NCBI RefSeq assembly: GCF_004010195.1
Contig: NC_057757.1
Coordinates: forward strand, 1,533,614-1,553,613
Origin: Chiloscyllium plagiosum
Taxonomy: Eukaryota
DNA length: 20,000 nucleotides
Direction: 5' to 3'
How positions within the stretch are numbered: the stretch's first letter is position 1; each line of letters begins with the position of its first letter. This document shows positions 1 to 20,000 of this stretch, one piece after another. The position numbers and the translations under genes are program-made. The notes beneath the pieces are model-generated. The model did no database searches and had not been told where the DNA came from. It was given only the letters and a program-made list of their open reading frames with translations.

Positions 1-553
1 GCAAATTGACAGTTCTGCTAAAGCTGCATAAAATGGCTTTTTATTTTACTAACTGCTAATTCTGCTATAACTGCATAAGTGACTAACCACAGTCTGTTTC
101 AATAGAGATTAGCAGATAATACTCCCTTTACGCACAGAAATAACTAGACTAGATAAGACATTACTGGCCACCTTCAGATGTAGGTGCAATGGCTAGGTTT
201 GTGAGATAAGGGTAGCCTGAGTATTGGAAAATAAAGTTGGTTCCCAGGAAATATCATTGGACTGAGTAACTGTCAAATAAAGCAGTATCATGTATTGATT
301 GATAATTGTTTGAATATACTGTGTGCTCATGGCTTGTATCCAAATGTCTTTGTGTTAAGCCATGTGTGCAGCTCCTCTGAGGAACACGGAAGTGCACAAC
401 CTCTGTGTTTCTGGACGCTCTATGCCCAGCCATATGAAGAAATAAAGAATGAAGTCTTAAAGACTCAGACTGATTGTGAGTGCTTATTGGCTGATCACAG
501 AACAGAGAAAAAGAGAGACACCCCCCGCCCCCCCATCAGGGTCCAGATCTTCA
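1..553 (+). repeat. 5' LTR (start lies about 137 bp upstream of the window; full length about 690 bp)
   Basis: Matches the 3' copy from 8369. Ends TCAGGGTCCAGATCTTCA, an imperfect inverted repeat of the 3' LTR start TGAGGATCTGAACCTGA (TG...CA termini). Candidate polyA signal AATAAA at 441-446. Confidence 0.9.
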
Positions 554-573
554 TCGCGTGCCATGAGTCAGAC
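554..573 (+). promoter_or_regulatory. Degenerate primer binding site, probably tRNA-His
   Basis: Directly after the LTR-terminal CA. 558-573 GTGCCATGAGTCAGAC matches 12/16 to GTGCCGTGACTCGGAT of the tRNA-His PBS (TGGTGCCGTGACTCGGAT); two mismatches are CpG-type transitions. Confidence 0.7.
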
Positions 574-752
574 TTGGTACGGATGGATTGTGGGCACCGG
601 TGTAAGACCCTTGAGTCCTCCACTATAGAGTGTAGAGGAATCAGCTGACCAGACATGAGTATATTCTCCATTTGGTTTTCCTCTCATTCAAGTCACGGTT
701 GACTCGACCCCTCACTGCTTATCATCTCAATCCAGCCTGAGAAGGATCGGTC

Positions 753-761
753 TTGGTAAGA
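753..761 (+). promoter_or_regulatory. Candidate major splice donor
   Basis: TTG|GTAAGA about 200 nt downstream of the LTR, in the position expected for a retroviral major splice donor. Confidence 0.45.
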
Positions 762-784
762 ATTCGTTCAGAAAAAATTAAAAA

Positions 785-1157
785 GGAGTCGGGAACTCAC
801 ATAAAGATCGGGGACCTACAGATTGGGGATCCGGAATAAAGTCAGGGACTCTAAAGATTAAAAAGGAGTTGGGGACTCCAGGGAGTCGGGGACTCCACTT
901 AAAAGGCTGGGGACCTATGGATCAGGGATCCAGAATAGAGGCATGGACTCTAAACATTATAAACGAGTTGGGGACTCCACTTACAGGTCGGGGACCTGCG
1001 GATCGGAGATGCGGAATAGAGTCAGGGACTCTAAAGATCATAAAGGAGTCTGGAACTCCAGGGAGTCAGGGACTCCACATAAAGTTCCGGGACCTGTGGA
1101 TCGGGGATCTGGAATAGAGTCGGGGACTCTAACATTAAATAAACAAGTTAGGGACCT
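785..1157 (+). repeat. Tandem array of about 19 short stem-GGG-stem hairpin units in the retroviral leader
   Basis: Units such as GGAGTC-GGG-GACTCC (882-896), CAGGTC-GGG-GACCTG (984-998), TGGATC-AGG-GATCCA (918-932) and TAGAGTC-GGG-GACTCTA (1115-1131), arranged in four 80-100 bp modules with a higher-order period of about 180 bp. Confidence 0.9.
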
Positions 1158-3044
1158 GAGTAAGGAAGTACAAATTAATCAGGGGCTCAAATTCGGTCAA
1201 ATTGGAGTTGTCTAAATTGATTTCCAAATTATTCTGTGAAAGACAAAACAAAGATGTTTCGCGATATATGTCAGTTTTAGAATGTTTTGCAGAAATCATT
1301 AGTCTTGTTCGTTGTTGGGTTGTTGATTAGTGAAAGTTTCAAGTCGAGATTATCTTCTCTGTTTGACTTGGCTTGTCTTGCTTTGCTGCTTTGTCTTGTT
1401 GTCTGCTATGGTTTTGTTCTAGTTGTTTTGGTGTTTGTTCTTTGTTTATGAAATATAGAGGATGGTTGCTACTTTTGTCGCGTTTAAAAAGAAAAGCCGG
1501 CCAGTGATACAATTCTCACACATTTTGTTAAGCAGCTATGTGCCACAGCCAGATTTAAGCTAAACTCCCTAATTTTGACAGTTCTGGAATGTGAGTGCCT
1601 CATTACCCTTAAAATGTTCATAAGTGTGTATGTGAGAGAGAGAGAGACAGAGGCCAAGACTCAGTGCTGATTCACTGCAGCTTGCAGAAAGTTTAACCCT
1701 TTGAGATTTGGTTTGAATGTACTTTTGCTTGTTGGTGATTGAATGTTTGTCTTTTGTTCCCTGGAGCTCGAGATCCGGGACTGTTTTGAATTTGATTTAC
1801 ATATTGGGAATTTAGCATGATTTCAAGGTTAAGGATCCATCAGTGATTATGAAATGAAATATTAGCCCCTGTTCTTTTTACAGGCCATGACTGCCCTACT
1901 GTCAATTTCTAACTAATCACTTTTATGCTACATCAACGCCAATCTTATTTAATTTCTAACCAGTTTAATATGGCGGAAGACAACATTATAATCTTTTTTA
2001 GAAAGTCTTCTCCTTCGATTCTGCATCATTTGACATCAGTATAAACTTGCTGTCAAATTCCCCATAATTTCATGCTACTACCAAAGATCATTTCCATCCC
2101 TCTCACCCCTACGTGTTGTACTAATGAAAGAATTGACTAAAGGAAGTAAAGCAGTAGTACTAAATCTGGGCCTCGGGTGCAGAATCATTCTGTTCCAGGA
2201 TGAGAGTAGGTCAATGCTCAACTTTAGTTATAATCTAAACCTAACATTGAGGAAAATCACTTCAGACTTCAACATTTGCATGAACCTTATTTCATTTAGT
2301 TAAATTTTGTAAAACTGAAAGTATAAAGATAGATCCAAAATATCCCATAACAACAGCATTGTTTTCAGAAAATGATACTAGAGATTTAATTTTTGTTTCA
2401 GACTCGTTTGTTTCCACTTAATTTTAAGGCTGTTGTGTCTCATTGGTGATTATGGTGTGCCAGTCGTAGCTTTATTTTATCTCAATTTTCCTCCCTCAAT
2501 GACAAATGAATTTTCAGTTCAACATTATGTTGTAGTAAATCATGTAACAAAATTAACATCTTATTGTTAATATCTGTGTCTTTGGATTCGGCGATTACTT
2601 GTGCATTAGAAGTTTTTTCTTACCATGTGAGTAGACAAGACCTTTGAGGCAGCTGCAGTTATTTCACGGCCGATAGCATTGTAAATGAGCAATGACTGGC
2701 CAGGACTGCTTAAGGAATCTAATCTGGGATCTACATTAAGGGACTAGAACAAGGTAATTATAATGGATTTCAGAGTTGAAAACTGTATACATTTTACATT
2801 TTAAATATTGAATACTGAATAAATGAATTTCCAATTTATACTGATAACTTGTAAAATGTCTTAGCCACTTGTTCAGTTTCCACCTCTGAATTACAGATAA
2901 TGATTATTTTATTTATTATTTTTTGATAATCAATTGTTTTGGCCCTGAATCACAAAATCAGAATTAATTGGCAGGATCGCTTGGCTTTATCCCTTTACAC
3001 ATTGTCAGTGACCTGTCTCATTGCCTCACAGTTAATTTGAAGTA

Positions 3045-4360
3045 TGGTTGCATTAATTCGTTGCTAACTAAAGAAAGGAAAGATACCTTACTGGCCAGAT
3101 GACGGTATTCTACATTTGATTGGGGGATAGAGGTATGTATAGCAGATGGAACTCCCAAACGCTGGGAGGTGTTCATAGCTGACTGTGAATGGGGAGATGA
3201 AAGAATAAAAGGGACATGAGAAACAGTATCAGGCCACTAAAGCTAAGGAAAATACAAACAGGGTTAAAGGGTTAAAGCAACAATGCTGTAAAATAAAGAA
3301 CATAGATTCTACTCGGAATCCCAAGCCTATGTCTGGCATACTGACCCTCTTTGAGGATGGGGATTTTATTCTTGGATATCTGCTAAGCCCCTGACATCTC
3401 CTGATTGTCCCCAGCACACACACACACACCCTCCCCTTTCCTTCTTTTGAAAATGAAGCATCCAGTCTTCGTAGCCGATATCATGGGGATGAGTGGCCTG
3501 CGCCATCCTAAACCAGGGCCCATCCTGGGAACCAGAGTAATGTTGATGAAGCATGCCCCTGACCGCAAGAACAAACCAGCCCAGTTTGCTCAATACGTCC
3601 AAAGGACGATACACATGTAAATGCAGTAAAATTCTGGGAGTAGCCTGAATGTGAATGGCTTGCGTTATAAAACTGAAATATGTAGCCATCTAGATTAGAT
3701 TAGATTAAATTACTTACAGTGTGGAAACAGGCCCTTCAGCCCAACAAGTCCACACCGACCTGCCGAAGCGCAACCCACCCAGACCCATTCCCCTACATTT
3801 ACTCCTTCACCTAACACTATGGGCAATTTAGCATGGCCAATTCACCCAACCTGCATCTGTCTGATGGAAGTGGTGTACAATTGAAAAAATAATCAAGAAG
3901 CTGAGTCATGTTTGTTTAACCCTGTGCTTTTGCAATGTTTTCCTCCTGGTGTCATTGACATGATCCAGACAAACCATATGAACTAGTCCAGGAATTTCCA
4001 GTCGCAAATGAGGTGAGCAGTGGTTTTCTATTGGGACGGCCAGTATCAGACTGAACCATGATACAAGTTACAGGTAAAACCGATTGTATCCAGCACCCTC
4101 GCGATCCCCAATATCATGTGTCAGCCCCAACGGGGTTGATTGGGACCAGCATACCCAGTGCTGGTGGAAACTACCTCAGATGCCCACCCAGCGACCTCTG
4201 CTGAGCAACCCTTTCCCGAGGGAACCCTGGAAATGGGGTCAGGCAGGCTTCAGAATTACACCTTTGTGACTGGAAACAAGACAGCAAAACCTTTCAGGGA
4301 CAAATGGCTGGCCCTTGCTTTAACTGTGGAAATATGGCCACTTGAGAGTGATGTGTCTTT
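3045..4360 (+). pseudogene. gag: gag remnant (MA fragment, CA C-terminal-like region, single NC zinc knuckle), interrupted by a SINE
   Basis: KKGKIPYWPDDG/TFD at about 3071-3120 resembles the gammaretroviral MA motif WPxDGTF. CFNCG(K)YGHLRVMC at 4316-4356 is CX2CX4HX4C after repairing a 1-nt deletion. Boundaries approximate. Confidence 0.75.
3690..3858 (-). mobile_element. 5'-truncated shark SINE (HE1/V-SINE-like) inserted in gag
   Basis: (TAGAT)n tail followed by CTTACAGTGTGGAAACAGGCCCTTCAGCCCAACAAGTCCACAC, the reverse complement of the 3' half of the SINE at 17340-17635. Confidence 0.9.
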
Positions 4361-4400
4361 AATGTTACCTTGGAGCTAATGTAGGGAATCGACATGCTTA

Positions 4401-4630
4401 CAAAAGGAATATCTGCTAATATACACTGACTCTTAGTTGTGCTTTTGATGTGACCCACCATTTTGGTGCCTTGTGGGAACATAGAGGATTTTTACCCTCC
4501 ACGAGGTGGCATTACAGTAATGTTGTTTTGTCCAACCTGTCAGTTATCAAGATGTTCGGCTCACACTGACACCACTGATAGTGTCCAAAGTAATGAGCAG
4601 ATGGATGCTGCTGCCAAGCAGGCAGCCTTA
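4401..4630 (+). pseudogene. pol: pol remnant: C-terminal part of RNase H
   Basis: Frameshifted KGISANI-TDS-CAFDVTHHFGALWEHRGFL (cf. NIYTDSRYAFGxxHxFGxLWxxRGFL) and CSAHT...NEQMDAAAKQAAL (cf. CxAHT...GNxxADxAAKxAA). Confidence 0.9.
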
Positions 4631-4699
4631 CACCCCAAAACGTCTGGTCCCATTGTGCCTCCAGCAAAACCTGAATAGAGACAATATGGGGACAGGTGT

Positions 4700-5330
4700 G
4701 CCAGACCTGGGTATGGTACAGAAATCACAGGGAAAGCCCCCTGCTGAAGAGCACAAACTATGGCCTCAAATAGGGTACTCCCTCGATACTCAAACCAAAA
4801 TGTGGGTGACTCCTGCTGGACATGTTTGTGTTTCTTCTTTGCTGCTGCCTATTTTGGTTGATTATGTACATTATTGTACACACTTGGGCAAGGAAGGAAT
4901 GGTTAATACTTTTACAAACTTGGTGGCATGCAGATTTTCAGAAAGCAGCTAGAAAAAGAGCTGCGGTGTGTTTAATTTTTAAGCAAACAAGACACATGCT
5001 GTAAAAGGTTGTTAACCACTTCCTTGCCTAGTGGGCCTTTTTTACTTGTCTACAGCTTGCTTTTAAAGAATTACCTCACATACATTGTTATGAATATTGG
5101 CTAATAATAGTAAATGTTTTTAGTAGATGAATCAAAATCACCCCAATGACTGATACTGCTGCCACTATAGTGGTGGACAGGTGAGAAGTATTTGCATCAG
5201 TAACCAGAATTAAATTGGAGCCTAGGTGGAAAGACCTGTTCCTAGTCCGGCTGGTCACCCGTGCAGCAGTCAAGACCAAGGGAAAGCTGCATAGACGCAT
5301 GGGATGCAGTGCAAGAGAACACCGCCCCAA
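4700..5330 (+). pseudogene. pol: pol remnant: integrase Zn-binding domain, start of the catalytic core, then C-terminal domain (most of the core deleted)
   Basis: VHYCTHLGKEGM...TWWHADFQKAARKRAAVCLI (HHCC region); PSGPF..LQLAFKELP..YEYWLIIVNVFSR*I (core start); jump at about 5175 to RIKLEPRWKDLFLVRLVTRAAVKTKGK...HGMQCKR (CTD). Confidence 0.9.
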
Positions 5331-5491
5331 GGAGAAAATCTATTGATTAATGCTTTGTTACCTGCAAAACCCACGACCACAGATGTCCCCAATTGACTGT
5401 TTTTGCAATTATTATATTGTTTTTAATTGTCCTCGGTATAACCTGGTGGCCTCTACTAAGAAAGAACTGCATTTTAATACTTTCCTTTCAG

Positions 5492-5660
5492 CTGCTCCCC
5501 TCCCTCGACAATGGTCCGGCTGTTGGACCTGGCTCATTCATTCTCATCAAGAATTGGACACACTGCAGCCTCCAACCTCGACGACAGGGGCTCTGCCAGG
5601 TTCTCCTCACCACCCCTACTGCTCTTAAGGTTGCTGGGCATCTCCATCATTGCAAGATCA
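5492..5660 (+). pseudogene. Second, divergent integrase C-terminal domain preceding env
   Basis: PGSFILIKNWTHCSLQPRRQGLCQVLLTTPTALKVAG-HLHHCK matches the gamma-type IN CTD pattern PGDxVLIKxW...LQPRWxGPYQVLLTTPTAxKV...WIHxxHxK. Preceded by the splice-acceptor-like CTTTCCTTTCAG (5480-5491). Confidence 0.85.
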
Positions 5661-6226
5661 TCGGACGAGCCCCTTGCAAGGGGAGAGATGATGAAGATCA
5701 AACTTAACCTGTTGTGTGGACTCATCATCATCGGCATTAATGCTCAAGAATGGACTATTTATCAGTGTGATCCTAAGCAACCAGAGACTGTATACCATTT
5801 GTGCCGAAAAGATGTCCTTGTGTGCCAAGAGACTGATTCCTTCGATGCATGAAACATTACCAAGAATAACCGTCGCAATGGTCAACTGCATCAAGAAGAT
5901 CGGACAGTTCATTTACAGGACAAGTCTCAATGGTCTTTACCCTGTCAAGGTGTTTTATACCAGTTTGATTTCAGTTGTGCTATGGGCAGCCCTGGTAAGC
6001 TTTGACCCGATCCAAATAGGTCTCAATCTGCACGCCACAAAAGAGAAAAGTGGAAATGTCGTCTTTCACTAACAATTTCTTTTTTTGAAGTCATAATAAA
6101 ATATTCAGCCAGGATGTTACGCCCTCTCAGCAGCAAAGGACTCTTTGACCCTTTCCCCCTTCCGAATCCTAATGACGGAGTATGGAATACTTCTAAGGCG
6201 TTTACCAGACATAATGTTTCCTTTGA

Positions 6227-6466
6227 GGAGAAAGTGAGGACTGCAGATGCTGGAGATCAGAGCTGAAAATGTGTTGCTGGAAAAGCGCAGCAGGTCAGGC
6301 AGCATCCATGGAACAGGAGAATCAACGTTTCGGGCATAAGCCCTTCTTTAGGAATCTTCAGGAAGCGCACAGATTCCTGAAAAAGGGCTTATGCCCGAAA
6401 TGTCGATTCTCCTGTTCCTTGGATGCTGCCTGACCTGCTGCGCTTTTCCAGCAACACATTTTCAGC
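6227..6466. mobile_element. Fold-back non-autonomous Penelope-derived element inserted in env
   Basis: Perfect 17-bp TSD CATAATGTTTCCTTTGA (6210-6226, 6467-6483); long internal inverted repeat; homologous to the terminus of the Penelope element at 11147-11280. Confidence 0.9.
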
Positions 6467-7172
6467 CATAATGTTTCCTTTGATTATTATTTATCCCCAC
6501 CTGCTGTCTGTTTGTGGACATCCTCTCATAAGTCCAGAGTAGCATATCCAAATTGTTACAACGGTACGGGATGGGAGTGCACTTACGTGAATGTGACTAA
6601 GACTATTCCATGTGCCTTGGTCAAAAGTAACAACCACTACTGCTCCCCTGTGGGGCCTCTCATCTCATGCATATGCCTACAGGAAGAGTGTGTCTCTGTT
6701 AGTGCAGATATTCAGGCTGTATGTGATATGGGTAACAGCACCGCCCACCTTCACTATGAGATCTCTAATGGCACTTCCATCTTCCCAGTTGTGGGATGGA
6801 AGGAACCAGTCTGGGACGATAACCTTACCTCTTACAAGAAGACCCATCTCTTTTTATTGAACATCTTTCACCCTAAGCGCCCAGGGCAACCATACTTTGT
6901 AGCCATGGACTACCTGTTCGTTTGGGGTAGTCACAAAGATAGGCCTGCTTCTTATTGGGAAGCCCCATCCATTATCTGTACTAAATCTGGTTATTGATTT
7001 TTCAGCCAAGGCAAAGTGACTAACTTCCTTGTTCTTAATGAAATAGGTACTCCCCGTGCTGTAGCTGAGGGATACTTCTATAGAACCATCTATAGAATCC
7101 ATCTACCATGCCCGCTGTCAAGGAAAGGCCGCAAGCATTCTCAAAAATCCATCCCACCCTGGCAATGTTTTT

Positions 7173-7449
7173 CTACCATCAGGAAGAAGGTACAGAAGCC
7201 TGAACACATGCACCAGCCAGTTTCGGAACAGTTTCTACCCTACTGTTAGAATACTGAATGGACTCTCAAACTTTTAACATTTGCCTGAACCTGTGTTTTT
7301 GTTTTTGCTGCTGTTTATCTTTTATTTACTTAGCTATGCTATTTAACTCTGTGATCTGCCTGTATTGCTCATAAGGCAAAGTTTTTCACTGTGCCTCGGT
7401 ACACGTGACAATAAATCCAATTCAATCCAATTCAGTTCAATTCAATTCA
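7173..7449 (+). mobile_element. 3' end of a Rex1/Babar-like LINE inserted in env
   Basis: Encodes LPSGRRYRSLNTCTSQFRNSFYPTVRILN*, typical of the Rex1-type ORF C-terminus; AATAAA then a (TTCAA)n tail; TTTTTC on both sides (7168-7173, 7450-7455). Confidence 0.8.
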
Positions 7450-8219
7450 TTTTTCCCGATTACTGTTCCCTGGTCCAACTACCTGGGAATGGGGTTGGGG
7501 TTTCCCTACCAAACGTTCAGTTTCACCTGAATTCTGCACATATTGGAGGGATGCTAAGGCTTTGGGCAACAGTAAAGCCCAGTCTGTGGGCTACACATTT
7601 CTTAGTGCTTTTTCCTTAGGAGGATCTGCAGGAATTATTAGCCACCCAAATTGAAATTATATTATTTGCGGTCTCACCCTCTTGGGCAACAAGACTGCCT
7701 CGGCCTTAGCAGGAGTTAAGGGTATGCTCTCAGAATTATGTCTATTTTCCGGTATGCTCTCGACTACCTACTCACCAAACAGGGTGGGGTTTGCGCCATA
7801 GTGAAGGGCAAATGTATGATGGGGGTTACCAGCCTCATCGAGAATATTAACAAGCATGTGGATAACATCCGCACCTTCGTCAGTTAAATGACAGAAGACT
7901 CTGGATGGGGAGATTGGGGTGTTGACTCATGGTACAACTGGTTGATAAATCTATGTATATTGGTATTATTTTAATTTGTCTCTTTGCTGGCATTGCTATA
8001 GTTAAATGTATTATTGTTAAGTTAATGAATTCTGTTGACAACATCAGTTCCCCCCAGAAAATGCTTCTTCTCTATCCAAGTGAAGGTGAGGAGGAGCAGT
8101 TGCCCACCCCTGCTTCCTCGGAGGAGGAGGAGGAGGAGGTATGGCAGGCTCTAGCATCCGTTCGATTGGACTAAACTAATCTATGCCCTCCCTCCTACGG
8201 TGTGATCATTGGAATGACC

Positions 8220-8231
8220 AAAAGGGGGAGA
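8220..8231 (+). promoter_or_regulatory. Polypurine tract
   Basis: AAAAGGGGGAGA immediately before the TG of the 3' LTR. Confidence 0.9.
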
Positions 8232-8681
8232 TGAGGATCTGAACCTGAATACTGGCTGAGGTAACTAGTTGTTGTCAAGAACAACCACTTAATAGATGCT
8301 CTTAATAACTTAGGTGGCAACAAGATGGCCTCTCGATGCAAATATCATGACAAAATGGCTTCGAGGCTGCAAATTGACAATTCTGCTAAAGCTGCATAAA
8401 TGGCTTTTAAGTTACTAACTGCTAATTCTGCTATAACTGCATAAGTGACTAACCACAGTCTGTTTCAATAGAGATTAGCAGATAATACTCCCTTTACGCA
8501 CAGAAATAACTAGACTAGATAAGACATTACTGGCCACCTTCAGATGTAGGTGCAATGGCTAGGTTTGTGAGATAAGGGTAGCCTGAGTATTGGAAAATAA
8601 AGTTGGTTCCCAGGAAATATCATTGGACTGAGTAACTGTCAAATAAAGCAGTATCATGTATTGATTGATGATTGATAATTG
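8232..8681 (+). repeat. 3' LTR, truncated (lacks the last about 245 bp)
   Basis: Starts TGAGGATCTG after the PPT; 8369-8681 aligns to 1-308, then homology stops abruptly at CR1 sequence. Confidence 0.92.
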
Positions 8682-11146: not shown

Positions 11147-12317
11147 GGCAAAAGTGAGGACTGCAGATGCTGGAAACCAGAGTTTAGATCAGAGTGGTGC
11201 TGGAAAAGCACAGCAGGTCAGGCGGCATCCGAGGAGCAGGAAAATCGATATTTCAGGCAAAAGCCCTTCATCAGGAATGGAAGCAGGGAGCCTCCAGGGT
11301 GGAGAGATAAAGGTGGGGGGAGAGGTAGCAAAGAGTGAATAGGGTGGGGATGGAGGTGATAGGTCAGAGAGGAGGGTGGAGCGGTTAGGTAGGAAGGGAG
11401 ATTGGCAGGTAGGACAGGTCATGAGGGCTGCTGAGCTGGAAGGTTGGAATTTGGGTAAGGTGGGGGGAGGGGAAATGGGGAAACTGGTGAAGTCCACATT
11501 GATGCCCTGGGGTTCCGAGGTGAACGATGAGGCGTTGTTCCTCCAGGTGTTGGGTGGTGAGGGAGTGGCAGTGAAGGAGGCCCAGGACCTGCATATCCTC
11601 GGTGGAGTGGGAGGGGGAGTTGAAATGTTGGGCCACGGTTGGTGGAGTTGATTGGTGCGGGTGTCCCGGAGATGTTCTCTGAAGCGCTCTGCGAGGAGGC
11701 GTCCAGTCTCCCCAATGTAGAGGAGACTGCATAGGGAGCAACGGATACAATAAATGACATTGGTGGATGTGCAGGTAAAACGTTGATGGATGTGGAAGGC
11801 TCCTTTGGGGCCTTGGATGGAGGTGAAGGAGGAGGTGTGGGCACAGGTTTTGCAATTCCTGCGGTGGTAGGGGACGGTGCCAGGACTGGAGGGTGGGTTG
11901 TTGGTGGGCGTGGACCTGACCAGGTAGTCACGGAGGGAATGGTCTTTGCGGAAAGTGGAAAAGGGATGGGGAGGGAAATATATCCCTGGTGGTGGGGTCT
12001 GTTTGGAGGTGGCGGAAATGTCAGCGGATGATGCGGTTAATGTGAAGGTTGGTAGGGTGGAAAGTGAGCACCAGGGGGGTTCTGTCCTTGCTATGGTTGG
12101 AGGGGTGGGGTTTGAGGGCAGAAGTGCGGGATGTGGATGAGATGCATTGGAGGGCATCTTTAACCATGTGGGAAAGGAAATTATGATCTCTAAAGAAGGG
12201 GGCCATCTGGTGCGTTCTGTGGTGGAACTGGTCCTCCTGGGAGCAGATACGGGGGAAGCGGAGGAATTGGGAATACGGGAGGTAGGTGGGAAGAGATGTA
12301 ATCCAGATAGCTGTGGC
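11147..12317 (-). mobile_element. 5'-truncated Penelope-like retroelement with GIY-YIG endonuclease remnant
   Basis: ORF 11189-12328(-) contains RRNCKTC...FTCTSTNVIYCIRCSLCSLLYIGETGRLLAERFREHL; next frame VAQHFNSPSHS...EEQRLIVHLGT; 10-bp TSD TTTTGAAGCA (11137-11146, 12318-12327). Confidence 0.93.
11245..11278 (-). ncRNA. Minimal hammerhead-ribozyme-like core in the Penelope terminal repeat (degenerate)
   Basis: Minus strand CUGAUGA-A-GGGC-UUUU-GCCU-GAAAU-AUC. Minimal type I hammerheads are known from Penelope pLTRs. Confidence 0.65.
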
Positions 12318-13464
12318 TTTTGAAGCAACCTAGTGAGCTACAAGCTGAATCAATATTACCTTATGCTCGTGATCTTCACTCCTGCGTATCCCTCTATATC
12401 GTTATAAATTATGTCCATCTTGAAAAGAGGAAACATGACAGAAGTTTGTGATTGTAAATGTACTTTTAATTTAATTAAAAGAACCGAGTTAACTAAGTTC
12501 AGCACAATCTCTCCATCGCCCCACCCCCTTCAATCTCTGCTCACATCTGCTATGTTGATGACATTGAAAGTTTGGAGACTGGCATTATGCCAAAGAACTG
12601 AAAGCAAAAAAATCTTAAGACCAATGTTCTGTAAAGGTGCTAGCCATGGCAATTGTGAATTAATTTCAAGTGCAAAATGGATTTGACCATTGGAGCGGAG
12701 TAAATTAGTTGTGGGATCACATTAGATTTGGCCTGATCTACATAACAGTTATCAAATAATTTTCTTTTCAAAAAATAACAGTGCATGAATCAAAAGCATG
12801 GATTGGATATTGCAACCATAGGTTTTCAGAAAGCTGGATAAGAGATTTTAACCAAGTTAGGATCAGTAATATTAAAGTAATCAGACCTGCATTAGTGGAG
12901 AAATGGCTAAAGAAAGATAAGTTGTTGGTTGTTGATTTGGAGTTTATAATCTATTTCCAGTAAGACATAAATGTGTATAATTGTAGTAAGTTAGTAGAAA
13001 ATCAGGAAAATGAATGAAAGCTGATTGCAAGAAGATTTAGAAAAGCTCATGGACAGGTGGATATTTACAAAAATGCCATTCAAGTGAGAGAAACATTGAA
13101 GTCATATATCTTGTTACAGGACATATTCAATAGAGATAAATACAAAATAGTAAGGACTGGGAGAACCTATACAGAAATGGCTGTAAAAACAGAAGTTCAA
13201 TGAGATTGTATATATTGGGGCAATTAATATGAAAGCAAAGTAGCAATGTTGAACTGCTGGAGTAAAATTTGCAATCCTGCGCACCAACCTGTTGTTTAAA
13301 GTCACTCTCAAAATTTTGGAACTCAGATGATGTGATGTCATTCAGTTCTGTTGTATACTTCTGATTTATTATTCTGACAGAAATATTGACAGAGATTTCA
13401 ACAGCATCTGTAAAACATCAAATAGAGTTTCATTAATCATTCCTCAGACAAAATCTTACCTCAA

Positions 13465-17795: not shown

Positions 17796-20000
17796 CATAC
17801 AGTCATAGAGATGTGCAGCATGGACCAACTTGTCCATTCCAACCAGATATCCCAACCGAATCTAATCCCACCTGCAAGTACCTGGCCCATATCCCTCTGA
17901 ACCCTTCCTATTCATGTACTCATTAAGATGCCTTTTAAATGTTGCAACTGTACCAGCCTCCACCACTTCCTCTGGCAGCTCATTCCATACATGTACCACC
18001 CTCTGCGTGAAAAAGTTGCCCCTTAGGTCCCTTTTATATCTTTCCCCCCTCATCCTAAACCTCTAGTTCTGGACTCCCCAGCCCAGGGACAAGACTTTGT
18101 CTATTTATCCTGCCCATGCCCTTCATGATTTTATAAGCCTCTATAAGATCACCCCTCATCCACCGATGCTCCTGAGAAAACAGCCCCAGCCTGTTCAGCC
18201 TCTCCCTATAGCTCAAATCCTCCAACCCTGGTGACATCCTTGTAAATCTTTTCTGAACCCTTTCAGGTTTTACAATACATTTCCGATAGGAAGGAGACCA
18301 GATTTGCATGCAATATTCCAACCATGGCCTAACCAATGTCCTGTATAGCCGCAACATGACCTCCCAACTCTGATATTCAATACTCTGATCAATAAAGGAA
18401 AGCATACCAAACGCCTTCTTCACTATCCTATCTACCTGCCGCTTCTCAGCCCATTGGCCCATCTGGTCCAAATCCTGTTGTAATCTGAGGTAACCCTCTT
18501 CGCTGTCCACTACATCTCCAATTTTGGTGTCATCTGCAAACTTACTAAATATACCTCTTATGCTCGCATCCAAATCATTTATGTAAATGACAAAAAGTCG
18601 AAGACCCAGCACCGATCCTTGTGGCACTCCACTGGTCACAGGCCTCCAGTCTGAAAAACAACCCACCACCACCACCTTTGAGCCAGTTCTATATCAAATG
18701 GTGAGTTCTCCCTGTATTCCATGAGATCTAACCTTGCTAACCAGTCTCCCATGGGGAACCTTGTCAAACTCCTTACTGAACTGAAAATGTATTGCTGGAA
18801 AAGTGCAGCAGGTCAGGCAGCATCCGAGGAGCAGGAGAATTGACATTTCAGGCATGAGCCCTTCTTCAGGAAAGAGCTCATGCCCGAAACGTCGATTCTC
18901 CTACACCTTGGATGCTGCCTGACCTGCTGCGTTTTTCCAGCAACACATTTTCAGCTCTGATCTCCAGCATCTGCAGTCCTCACTTTCTTCTCGAAGAAAA
19001 CACCTTACTGAAGTCCATATAGATCACATATACCACTATGCCCTCATCAATCCTCTTTGTTACTTCTTCAAAAAATTTAATCAACTTTGTGAGACATGAT
19101 TTCCCACGCACAAAGCCATGTTAATCCCTAATCAGTCCTTGGCTTTCCAAATACATGTGCATCCTGTCCCTCAGGATTCCCTCCAACAACTTGCCCACCA
19201 CCGACATTAGGCTCACTGGTCTATAATCCCCTGGCTTGTCTTTACCACCCTTCTTAAACAGTGGTACACGTTTGCCAACCTCCAGTCTTCTGGTACCTCA
19301 TCTGTGACTATCGATGATACAAATATCTCAGTAAGAGGCCCAGCAATCACTTCTCTAGCTTCCCACAGAGTTCTTGGGTACACCTGATCAGGTCCTGGGG
19401 ATTTATCCACTCTTATGTGTTTCAAGACACCCAGCACTTCCTCCTCTGTAATATGGACATTTTTCAAGATGTCACCATCTATTTCCTTACATATCTTCCA
19501 TGTCCTTTTCCACAGTAAGCACTGATGCAAAATACTCGTTTAGCATCTCCCCCATCTCCTGCGGTTCCACACAAAGGCCGCCTTGCTGATCTTTGAGGGG
19601 CCCTATTCTCTGCCTAGTTACCCTTTTGACCTTAATGTATTTGTAAAAATCCTTTGTTTCTCCTTAACTCTATTTGCCAAAGCTATCTCATGTCCCCGTT
19701 TTGCCCTCCTGATTTCCCTCTTAAGTATACTCCTACTGCCTTTATACTCTTCTAAGGATTCACACCATCTATCCTGTCTATGCCTGACATATGCTTCCTT
19801 CTTTGTCTTAGCAAATTCTTAATTTCTTTCGTCATCCAGCATTCCCTCTACCTACCAGCCTTTCCTTTCACCATAACAGGAATATACTTTCTCTGGATTC
19901 TTGTTATCTCATTTCTGAAGGCTTCCCATTTTCCAGCCGTCCCTTTACCTGCGAACATCTGCCTCCAATCAGCTTTTGAAAGTTCTTGCCTAATACCATC
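17796..20000 (-). mobile_element. CR1 LINE ORF2 (RT and C-terminus) with internal deletions; continues beyond the window
   Basis: DKSPGPDQVYPRTLWE...VPEDWRLANV; TSGVPQGSVLG..LFVIYINDLD...KFADDTKIG; LYRTLVRPWLEYCMQIWSP; NFFTQRVVHVWNELPEEVV. Confidence 0.95.
18781..18997. mobile_element. Second fold-back Penelope-derived element, opposite orientation to 6227-6466, inserted in CR1
   Basis: 15-bp TSD with one mismatch (AAACTCCTTACTGAA 18766-18780; AAACACCTTACTGAA 18998-19012); internal inverted repeat; same family as 6227-6466. Confidence 0.9.

What the first reader, a model, noticed from the sequence alone, without database searches (positions are those of the whole stretch)
5176..5707. Two different integrase C-terminal domains in tandem: footprint of env capture from another retrovirus
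Seen: CTD1 (KLEPRWKDLFLVRLVTRAAVKTKGK..HGMQCKR, about 5206-5318) is followed about 200 nt later by CTD2 (PGSFILIKNW..LQPRRQGLCQVLLTTPTALKVAG..HHCK, about 5527-5656). They share the motif but are too different to be a local duplication. CTD2 follows an acceptor-like CTTTCCTTTCAG and runs into the env ATG at 5688. Established: env splice acceptors typically lie in the 3' end of pol, and env swapping between lineages is documented. Inference: a recombinant that acquired an acceptor-IN tail-env cassette from a second lineage, with the breakpoint between about 5330 and 5490.
Basis: partly seen in the sequence, partly recalled or inferred. Interest (0 to 1): 0.7.

Follow-up and report, generated by a model that had tools for sequence, protein, structure and literature searches.

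The report
Retroviral patch beside native integrase end
A dead, heavily deleted retrovirus in a shark-like genome carries two different integrase end-domains because two retroviruses recombined there, most likely by a short foreign patch landing in the first virus, which is an ordinary kind of mosaic.

Summary
Two decayed integrase C-terminal domains (CTD1 ~5180-5318, CTD2 ~5522-5665) lie in tandem in a degraded class I provirus. They share 14 of 40 columns and are not each other's closest relatives. Contigs from the same organism and from a second one span the arrangement, so it is no assembly error.

The upstream integrase falls in a cartilaginous-fish clade. CTD2 places in that clade (weight 0.999) and carries its 'NW' signature (6 of 6 clade members, 0 of 20 others); CTD1 does not and sits on a long, unresolved branch. 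Related copies cover the integrase start and CTD2-env, but hardly CTD1's start or the spacer.

Best reading (0.55): CTD2 and env are native, and a ~260-nt foreign pol-end/env-start patch (CTD1, tail, signal-peptide-like stub) replaced the second half of the integrase core by double template switching. Env capture stays possible (0.3): CTD1's donor was not found, the nearest relatives lack CTDs, and my likelihood test proved poorly calibrated. The splice acceptor is unexceptional. Mosaics of this kind are described in human ERVs.

The parts
1..553 (+). 5' LTR, its start lying before the window; right end approximate
   Evidence: 1-308 matches 8369-8674 at 98.05% (4 mismatches, 2 gaps); right end inferred from a CA before a weak PBS-like stretch
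556..573 (+). weak primer-binding-site-like stretch (tRNA-His type)
   Evidence: 12 of 18 match to a recalled motif; equal scores at 182 and 8548, so weak
3891..4360 (+). decayed gag: capsid C-part and a zinc-knuckle-like stretch at about 4315-4360
   Evidence: weak tblastn to P0024 at 3891-4091, E=0.03; knuckle read from the translation
4441..4669 (+). RNase H remnant; protease and RT not detected upstream
   Evidence: tblastn 53% over 30 aa to P0006/P0024; no protease or RT hit from these full Pol queries at E<=0.5
4698..5175 (+). integrase N-terminal domain and first half of the core ('backbone'), with stops and frameshifts
   Evidence: tblastn; groups with P0003/P0005 at 97/95 inside a 10-row clade with P0029 and P0004 at 85/88
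5178..5318 (+). CTD1, decayed integrase C-terminal domain, probably foreign; left junction uncertain within about 5176-5200
   Evidence: Pfam MLVIN_C E=0.0012; placement unresolved, pendant branch 2.48; lacks the NW signature
5319..5396 (+). Pol tail following CTD1, ending in a stop at 5394-5396
   Evidence: open frame 5295-5393
5383..5440 (+). signal-peptide-like stub, read as the start of the env that went with CTD1; the ATG at 5383 is not in its frame
   Evidence: 5396-5440 is the most hydrophobic 15-mer in the three + frames of 600-8200 (mean 3.24); env identity is inference
5443..5521 (+). core-to-CTD linker remnant of the second integrase, frameshifted against CTD2
   Evidence: best of 7602 windows against five clade linkers (26.0; runner-up 25.6 at an unrelated place); 5 of 2000 shuffles reach the score
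5472..5491 (+). candidate env splice acceptor, AG ending at 5491
   Evidence: in the sequence; 12 of 173 AGs score as well or better; use not shown
5522..5707 (+). CTD2 and its tail, probably native to the upstream pol; stop 5705-5707 overlaps the env start
   Evidence: Pfam E=3.2e-6; 57% over 54 aa to P0004; placement weight 0.999 inside the clade
5688..8174 (+). broken env with a gamma-type-like transmembrane part; stops, frameshifts and two insertions (about 6206-6483 and about 7090-7450)
   Evidence: translation; weak Pfam TLV_coat E=0.052 and Ebola-like HR1-HR2 E=0.17; 6 stops in five stretches
8220..8674 (+). polypurine tract (8220-8231) and truncated 3' LTR

Best explanation
A defective class I provirus of family A (gag, RNase H, integrase, CTD2, env) carries a foreign patch of about 260 nt (about 5178-5440) from the pol-end/env-start of a second class I retrovirus B: CTD1, its tail and a signal-peptide-like stub. 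The patch stands in place of about 135-140 codons of A's integrase. Most likely mechanism: co-packaged A and B RNAs, with reverse transcriptase leaving A in the linker upstream of CTD2, copying a short out-of-register piece of B, and returning to A in the integrase core. A's env and its acceptor region were kept; integrase was destroyed, so the element needed a helper. Shown: two divergent CTDs, the missing core half, presence in two organisms. Inferred: which part is foreign, the stub's identity, the template-switch route.
For: Backbone places in or at the base of the cartilaginous-fish clade (weight 1.0, pendant 0.85), CTD2 inside it (0.999, pendant 0.80), CTD1 unresolved (0.64 inside, 0.16 stem, 0.20 outside; pendant 2.48). 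NW at the signature column: 6 of 6 clade CTDs and CTD2, 0 of 20 others, not CTD1. The closest complete integrase, P0029 (50% to the backbone), matches CTD2 at 24/40 and CTD1 at 17/40. In 55 of 55 pairs of 11 complete references CTD identity is at least backbone identity (mean +0.17); CTD1 falls below for the three nearest references (-0.08, -0.02, -0.02), CTD2 does not (+0.10, +0.26, +0.25). Contig depth at 80% likeness in X5: 15.6 at 5210 (equal to the locus's own contig), 57 in 5300-5487, against 118 at 4964, 166 at 5526 and 382-775 in flanking bins; X16 similar (43, 86, 111, 294); X13 has 0 in 5300-5487. The excess in that bin equals 32-52 nt of CTD2-side relatives, the length of the linker remnant. 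None of 18 native controls reached a CTD branch of 2.48 (maximum 1.75).
Against: No relative closer to CTD1 was found: it is further than CTD2 from all 26 references, which extra decay would also give. The backbone's nearest relatives P0003 and P0005 end before the CTD. Without the 8 junction-side columns CTD1's deficit shrinks to 0.00/+0.05/+0.05 against a control minimum of +0.034. The one-lineage likelihood test (CTD1 9.6, CTD2 4.7) is poorly calibrated: 3 of 18 native controls reach 9.6, 1 of 18 in the same direction, and 3 values are negative. CTD1's best placements include the backbone's best edge, and CTD2 prefers a sister subclade by 5.9 log units (AU 0.157). Contig depth is no copy number, bin 5112-5299 (732 in X5) mixes core and CTD1, 5210 is near a junction, and fast-evolving tails may fall under 80%. 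The element has another large deletion, so a simple deletion before CTD1 is cheap.
Confidence: 0.55

Rival explanations
1. Env capture: CTD1, tail and stub are native to the upstream pol; one out-of-register template switch at about 5430-5450 brought in linker, acceptor, CTD2 and env from a second virus of the same broad clade; a separate deletion removed half the integrase core.
For: CTD1-tail-stub looks like a natural pol end and env start. CTD1's best placements include the backbone's best edge. The element is deletion-prone. Pol-env incongruence is reported as frequent in fish and amphibian ERVs (10.1101/2021.11.23.469661) and 'env snatching' in human ERVs (PMC4724089).
Against: CTD2, not CTD1, has the clade signature and the expected identity. 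The backbone has many relatives in both organisms, yet few cover 5210 or 5300-5487.
Confidence: 0.3
2. The CTD1 patch is the remnant of a second provirus that inserted into the first in the genome and was then mostly deleted, not a product of reverse-transcriptase switching.
For: Secondary integration is a documented source of ERV mosaics (PMC4724089). The provirus holds several host insertions.
Against: Same orientation, no internal LTR and no duplicated target site near the patch in a self-comparison. Landing next to the homologous domain would be a coincidence.
Confidence: 0.07
3. An old duplication of the pol end within one virus lineage, carried by the whole family and later diverged.
For: Both domains are MLVIN_C-like and each is followed by a tail and a hydrophobic start.
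Against: CTD1-CTD2 identity (14/40) is below CTD2's to the clade (23-27/40) and no higher than CTD1's to several references (up to 17/40). Third positions are at chance level, 6/24. Most relatives do not cover the spacer.
Confidence: 0.06
4. Assembly chimera of two repeats.
For: The region is repetitive.
Against: Single contigs from three of four runs laid, in two organisms, span both domains.
Confidence: 0.02

Closest known systems
[quoted passage not shown]
   Same: Short foreign piece at the pol/env boundary in an otherwise uniform backbone; attributed to co-packaging and template switching; defective recombinants reintegrated with a helper.
   Different: Here the patch is out of register, so two CTDs remain and half the core is lost; the passages I saw do not describe a doubled CTD; the donor is unidentified; the host is a cartilaginous fish by its relatives.
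recKoRV of koala (PMC6112702, passages)
   Same: Two junctions, with the middle of one provirus replaced by another retroelement, disabling it; spread as a defective form.
   Different: recKoRV loses most coding sequence including env; here about 260 nt replace about 400-420 nt and env is kept; both parents of recKoRV are known.
Env capture ('env snatching') and anamniote ERVs with gamma-type Env (10.1101/2021.11.23.469661, parts 1-3 of 6; PMC10536682, passages)
   Same: Class I pol with a gamma-type-like env in a fish; recombination near the pol/env boundary.
   Different: Those cases rest on pol-env tree conflict, which I could not test; my data favour env being native here.
Class I integrases of skates and sharks (P0004 cluster with Leucoraja and Amblyraja members; P0045 Scyliorhinus; P0007 Heterodontus) and MLV integrase CTD (PF18697, 2m9u)
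   Same: Backbone 42-50% and CTD2 49-58% identical to the clade references with enough overlap; same domain family.
   Different: Those have one CTD after a whole core; the window's copy is broken and doubled.

Membership tests
MLV-type integrase CTD (PF18697) | Profile match at the curated cut-off (29.2 bits) | tested here: inconclusive
   CTD1 18.9 bits, CTD2 27.2 bits: significant E-values, both under the cut-off; top PDB hit 2m9u for both
Class I endogenous retrovirus | LTR-gag-pol-env-LTR order with polypurine tract | tested here: met
   LTR repeat, gag (weak), RNase H, integrase, env, PPT in order
Class I endogenous retrovirus | RT phylogeny | not testable with these tools
   No RT detected in the window; integrase used instead
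Env-capture recombinant | pol and env trees in conflict | not testable with these tools
   No env relatives found and no genomic context for the protein hits
Env-capture recombinant | Sequence 3' of the junction comes from another lineage than the upstream pol | tested here: not met
   CTD2 places in the backbone's clade and carries its signature; moderate strength, a sister lineage in the same clade is not excluded
Env-capture recombinant | Captured splice acceptor in use | tested here: inconclusive
   Motif present but unexceptional; no joint at 5491 among the 15 joints shown, 783 not shown, runs not on record as RNA
Internal-patch mosaic ERV (HERV9/HERVIP or recKoRV type) | Both flanks of the patch belong to one family | tested here: inconclusive
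   Same clade on protein placement and both flanks well covered by relatives, but no single copy joining them was seen
Internal-patch mosaic ERV (HERV9/HERVIP or recKoRV type) | Donor of the patch identified | tested here: not met
   No reference exceeds 40% to CTD1; atlas hits uninformative
Internal-patch mosaic ERV (HERV9/HERVIP or recKoRV type) | Same mosaic reintegrated at several sites | tested here: inconclusive
   Present in organisms A and C, 2 contigs at 5210 in X16; flanks not seen
Local tandem duplication | The two copies are each other's closest relatives | tested here: not met
   14/40 identity against 23-27/40 of CTD2 to the clade

The most novel reading that the evidence does not exclude
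The 260-nt patch is the main surviving trace of an unsampled class I retrovirus lineage, and the doubled-CTD, core-deleted mosaic replicated as a helper-dependent element: the organism C copy differs by about 4.9% while the LTRs here differ by about 1.3%, which fits separate integrations better than one inherited locus. Doubled integrase end-domains could then serve as a general marker for out-of-register template switches at the pol/env boundary.
Probability: 0.25. Interest if true: 0.45.

Novelty: new member of a known kind. Interest (0 to 1): 0.27.

Why it matters
It is a readable fossil of recombination between two fish retroviruses, with both junctions mappable to within tens of bases. 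It also warns that two tandem integrase end-domains do not by themselves show env capture: the direction must be tested, and here it probably runs the other way. It does not reveal a new mechanism or a working gene.

Tried and rejected
No whole genome is held for this window, so copies could not be compared directly. A protein search with CTD2 alone gave 2 hits among 40 candidates, both macaque. The env surface part gave 0 of 108 candidates and no usable atlas hit; the TM part had only weak PDB hits, E 0.65 and 1.4. Locus scans: viral contigs with CTD2 gave 2 chance phage hits, L001 and L002; with P0029 and with alignment A3, none; metagenomes gave 1 distant integrase, L003; genome contigs gave 0 loci. 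No RNA holder was listed; X1 might be RNA by its size, but it is recorded only as 'DNA?', so I claim nothing on expression or splicing. The atlas search with CTD1 gave unnamed clusters and a 24% SH3_Tf2-1 lead. The chi-square p-values of the one-lineage test (0.008-0.02) were set aside after calibration. The acceptor was rejected as independent evidence. An ATG at 5511 is in frame with the env ATG; I treat it as chance. Five of the six look-ups of earlier findings returned nothing. PMC3758190 held none of my six terms. No structure or complex prediction was run; it would not decide the direction.

Full report
Setting. The window holds a degraded provirus from before base 1 to about 8674. Bases 1-308 recur at 8369-8674 at 98.05%, with a polypurine tract at 8220-8231. 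Between them lie weak gag, RNase H, integrase and a broken env; no protease or RT was detected with full Pol queries. The nearest named relatives are from skates and sharks, so the host is inferred to be a cartilaginous fish. No genome is held.

Observation. Both CTDs are real. They hit Pfam MLVIN_C at E=0.0012 and 3.2e-6, under the cut-off, and MLV integrase is the top PDB hit of each. They share 14 of 40 aligned residues and 6 of 24 third codon positions. Single contigs in 3 of 4 runs laid span both: X1 and X5 (organism A, 4 differences each) and X16 (organism C, 34 differences and 20 gaps over 4962-5680).

The integrase core stops at about 5175 (residue 178 of P0004). CTD1 follows at once, then a tail to a stop at 5394-5396. 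The stretch 5396-5440 is the most hydrophobic 15-mer in the three + frames of 600-8200; I read it as the start of another env (inference). From about 5443 the sequence resembles the core-to-CTD linker of clade integrases: best of 7602 windows, though only narrowly (26.0 against 25.6 elsewhere), and 5 of 2000 shuffles reach it. So the second junction is at about 5430-5450, the candidate acceptor (AG at 5491) sits inside linker code, and about 260 nt stand where about 135-140 codons are missing. The acceptor is plausible but unexceptional: 12 of 173 AGs score as well or better. That env acceptors lie in the 3' end of pol is my own knowledge; 'splice acceptor' did not occur in the two papers searched for that phrase, nor 'splice' in two others.

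Which CTD is native: proteins. A sensitive search with the integrase gave 5 proteins and a profile search 37. I used 26 of the 61 protein ids fetched as references, leaving out those without a CTD and most near-duplicates. The backbone is 50% identical to P0029 and 42% to P0004, against 14-30% for references outside the clade with over 90 shared columns. With more N-terminal fragments it groups with P0003/P0005 (97/95) inside a 10-row clade with P0029 and P0004 (85/88). Placement on 49 edges puts the backbone in or at this clade (weight 1.0, pendant 0.85), CTD2 inside it (0.999, pendant 0.80), and leaves CTD1 unresolved on a 2.48 branch. All 6 clade CTDs and CTD2 have NW at one column; 0 of 20 others do, and CTD1 does not. 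In 55 of 55 pairs of 11 complete references, which are not independent, CTD identity is at least backbone identity; CTD1 breaks this for the three nearest references and CTD2 does not.

Results against this. CTD1 is further than CTD2 from all 26 references, so no donor was found and extra decay could mimic foreignness. P0003 and P0005 lack CTDs. Dropping the 8 junction-side columns reduces CTD1's deficit to 0.00, +0.05, +0.05 against a control minimum of +0.034. The one-lineage test gave 9.6 for CTD1 and 4.7 for CTD2, but 3 of 18 native controls reached 9.6, one in the same direction, and three values were negative; none had a CTD branch above 1.75. CTD1's best edges include the backbone's, and CTD2 prefers a sister subclade by 5.9 log units, AU 0.157.

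Which CTD is native: related copies. At 80% likeness, summed contig depth in X5 is 775 (4924-5111), 732 (5112-5299), 57 (5300-5487), 382 (5488-5675) and 694 (5676-5863); in X16 779, 562, 86, 787 and 1197; in X13 3.7, 6.4, 0, 8.0 and 24.4; X1 shows little beyond its own contig (51, 45, 36, 42, 44). At 5210 X5 has 15.6, the depth of the locus's own contig, against 166 at 5526. The excess in the spacer bin equals 32-52 nt of CTD2-side relatives, the length of the linker remnant. So the doubled form is rare while both flanks are common, as the patch reading predicts. Limits: depth is no copy number; bin 5112-5299 mixes core and CTD1; 5210 is near a junction; tails may fall below 80%; the leader 788-1163 is also thinly covered; most rows were not shown.

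Mechanism. Most likely (0.55) a double out-of-register template switch between co-packaged RNAs put virus B's pol end and env start into virus A's integrase, leaving A's CTD2 and env in place. Env capture plus a separate deletion is the main rival (0.3). The LTRs differ at 4 of about 306 sites while the organism C copy differs at 34 of about 700; if both were one inherited locus with unconverted LTRs this has probability 0.0008. Either the mosaic re-integrated or the LTRs were homogenised; I could not see flanks.

Comparison with print. [quoted passage not shown] PMC6112702 (passages) describes two-junction recKoRVs. 10.1101/2021.11.23.469661 (parts 1-3 of 6) reports frequent pol-env incongruence in fish and amphibian ERVs. 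PMC10536682 and PMC9967133 were seen as passages; PMC3758190 as a term search with no hits. I read no supplements; the lineage lists of the preprint and of PMC4724089 may bear on whether this family or a doubled CTD is already described. Eight searches (listings only) showed no paper on tandem integrase CTDs; 'second integrase' occurred in 0 of 15 listed papers and 'pol remnant' in 0 of 9. The library lacks most subscription journals.

Verdict. Interest 0.27.

Noticed in passing
window 772-1160: Four to five diverged copies (68-83%) of a unit spaced 81-99 nt in the proviral leader; thinly covered by related contigs.
   Followed up: no
window 1200-3400: About 2 kb between the leader repeats and the first gag-like signal has no retroviral protein hit yet is well covered by related contigs in all four runs, so it belongs to a repeated family; identity unknown.
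   Followed up: no
window about 4360-4441: A zinc-knuckle-like stretch runs almost directly into RNase H; protease and RT appear deleted.
   Followed up: partly
window 6206-6483: Insertion in env made of two inverted copies of a host repeat (96 nt, 95%, 13 nt apart), flanked by a 21-nt direct repeat; a similar inverted pair lies at 18778-18957.
   Followed up: no
window 5688-7090: The env surface part has no detected relative and holds an RHKR basic motif near 6030, well before the likely SU/TM boundary near 7510.
   Followed up: partly
window 1-308 / 8369-8674: LTRs 98% alike although the coding regions are heavily decayed; the 3' LTR is cut at 8674 and its rest was not found downstream.
   Followed up: partly
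window 11189-12337 (- strand) and 18055-19822 (- strand): Open frames that look like a GIY-YIG-type endonuclease end of a Penelope-like element and CR1-like LINE reverse-transcriptase pieces; labels recalled, not tested.
   Followed up: no
runs X1-X4: Four small contig sets (71-160 million letters) hold 86-95% of the words of 4500-6200; they are recorded as 'DNA?'. If they are RNA, this locus is transcribed; not established.
   Followed up: partly
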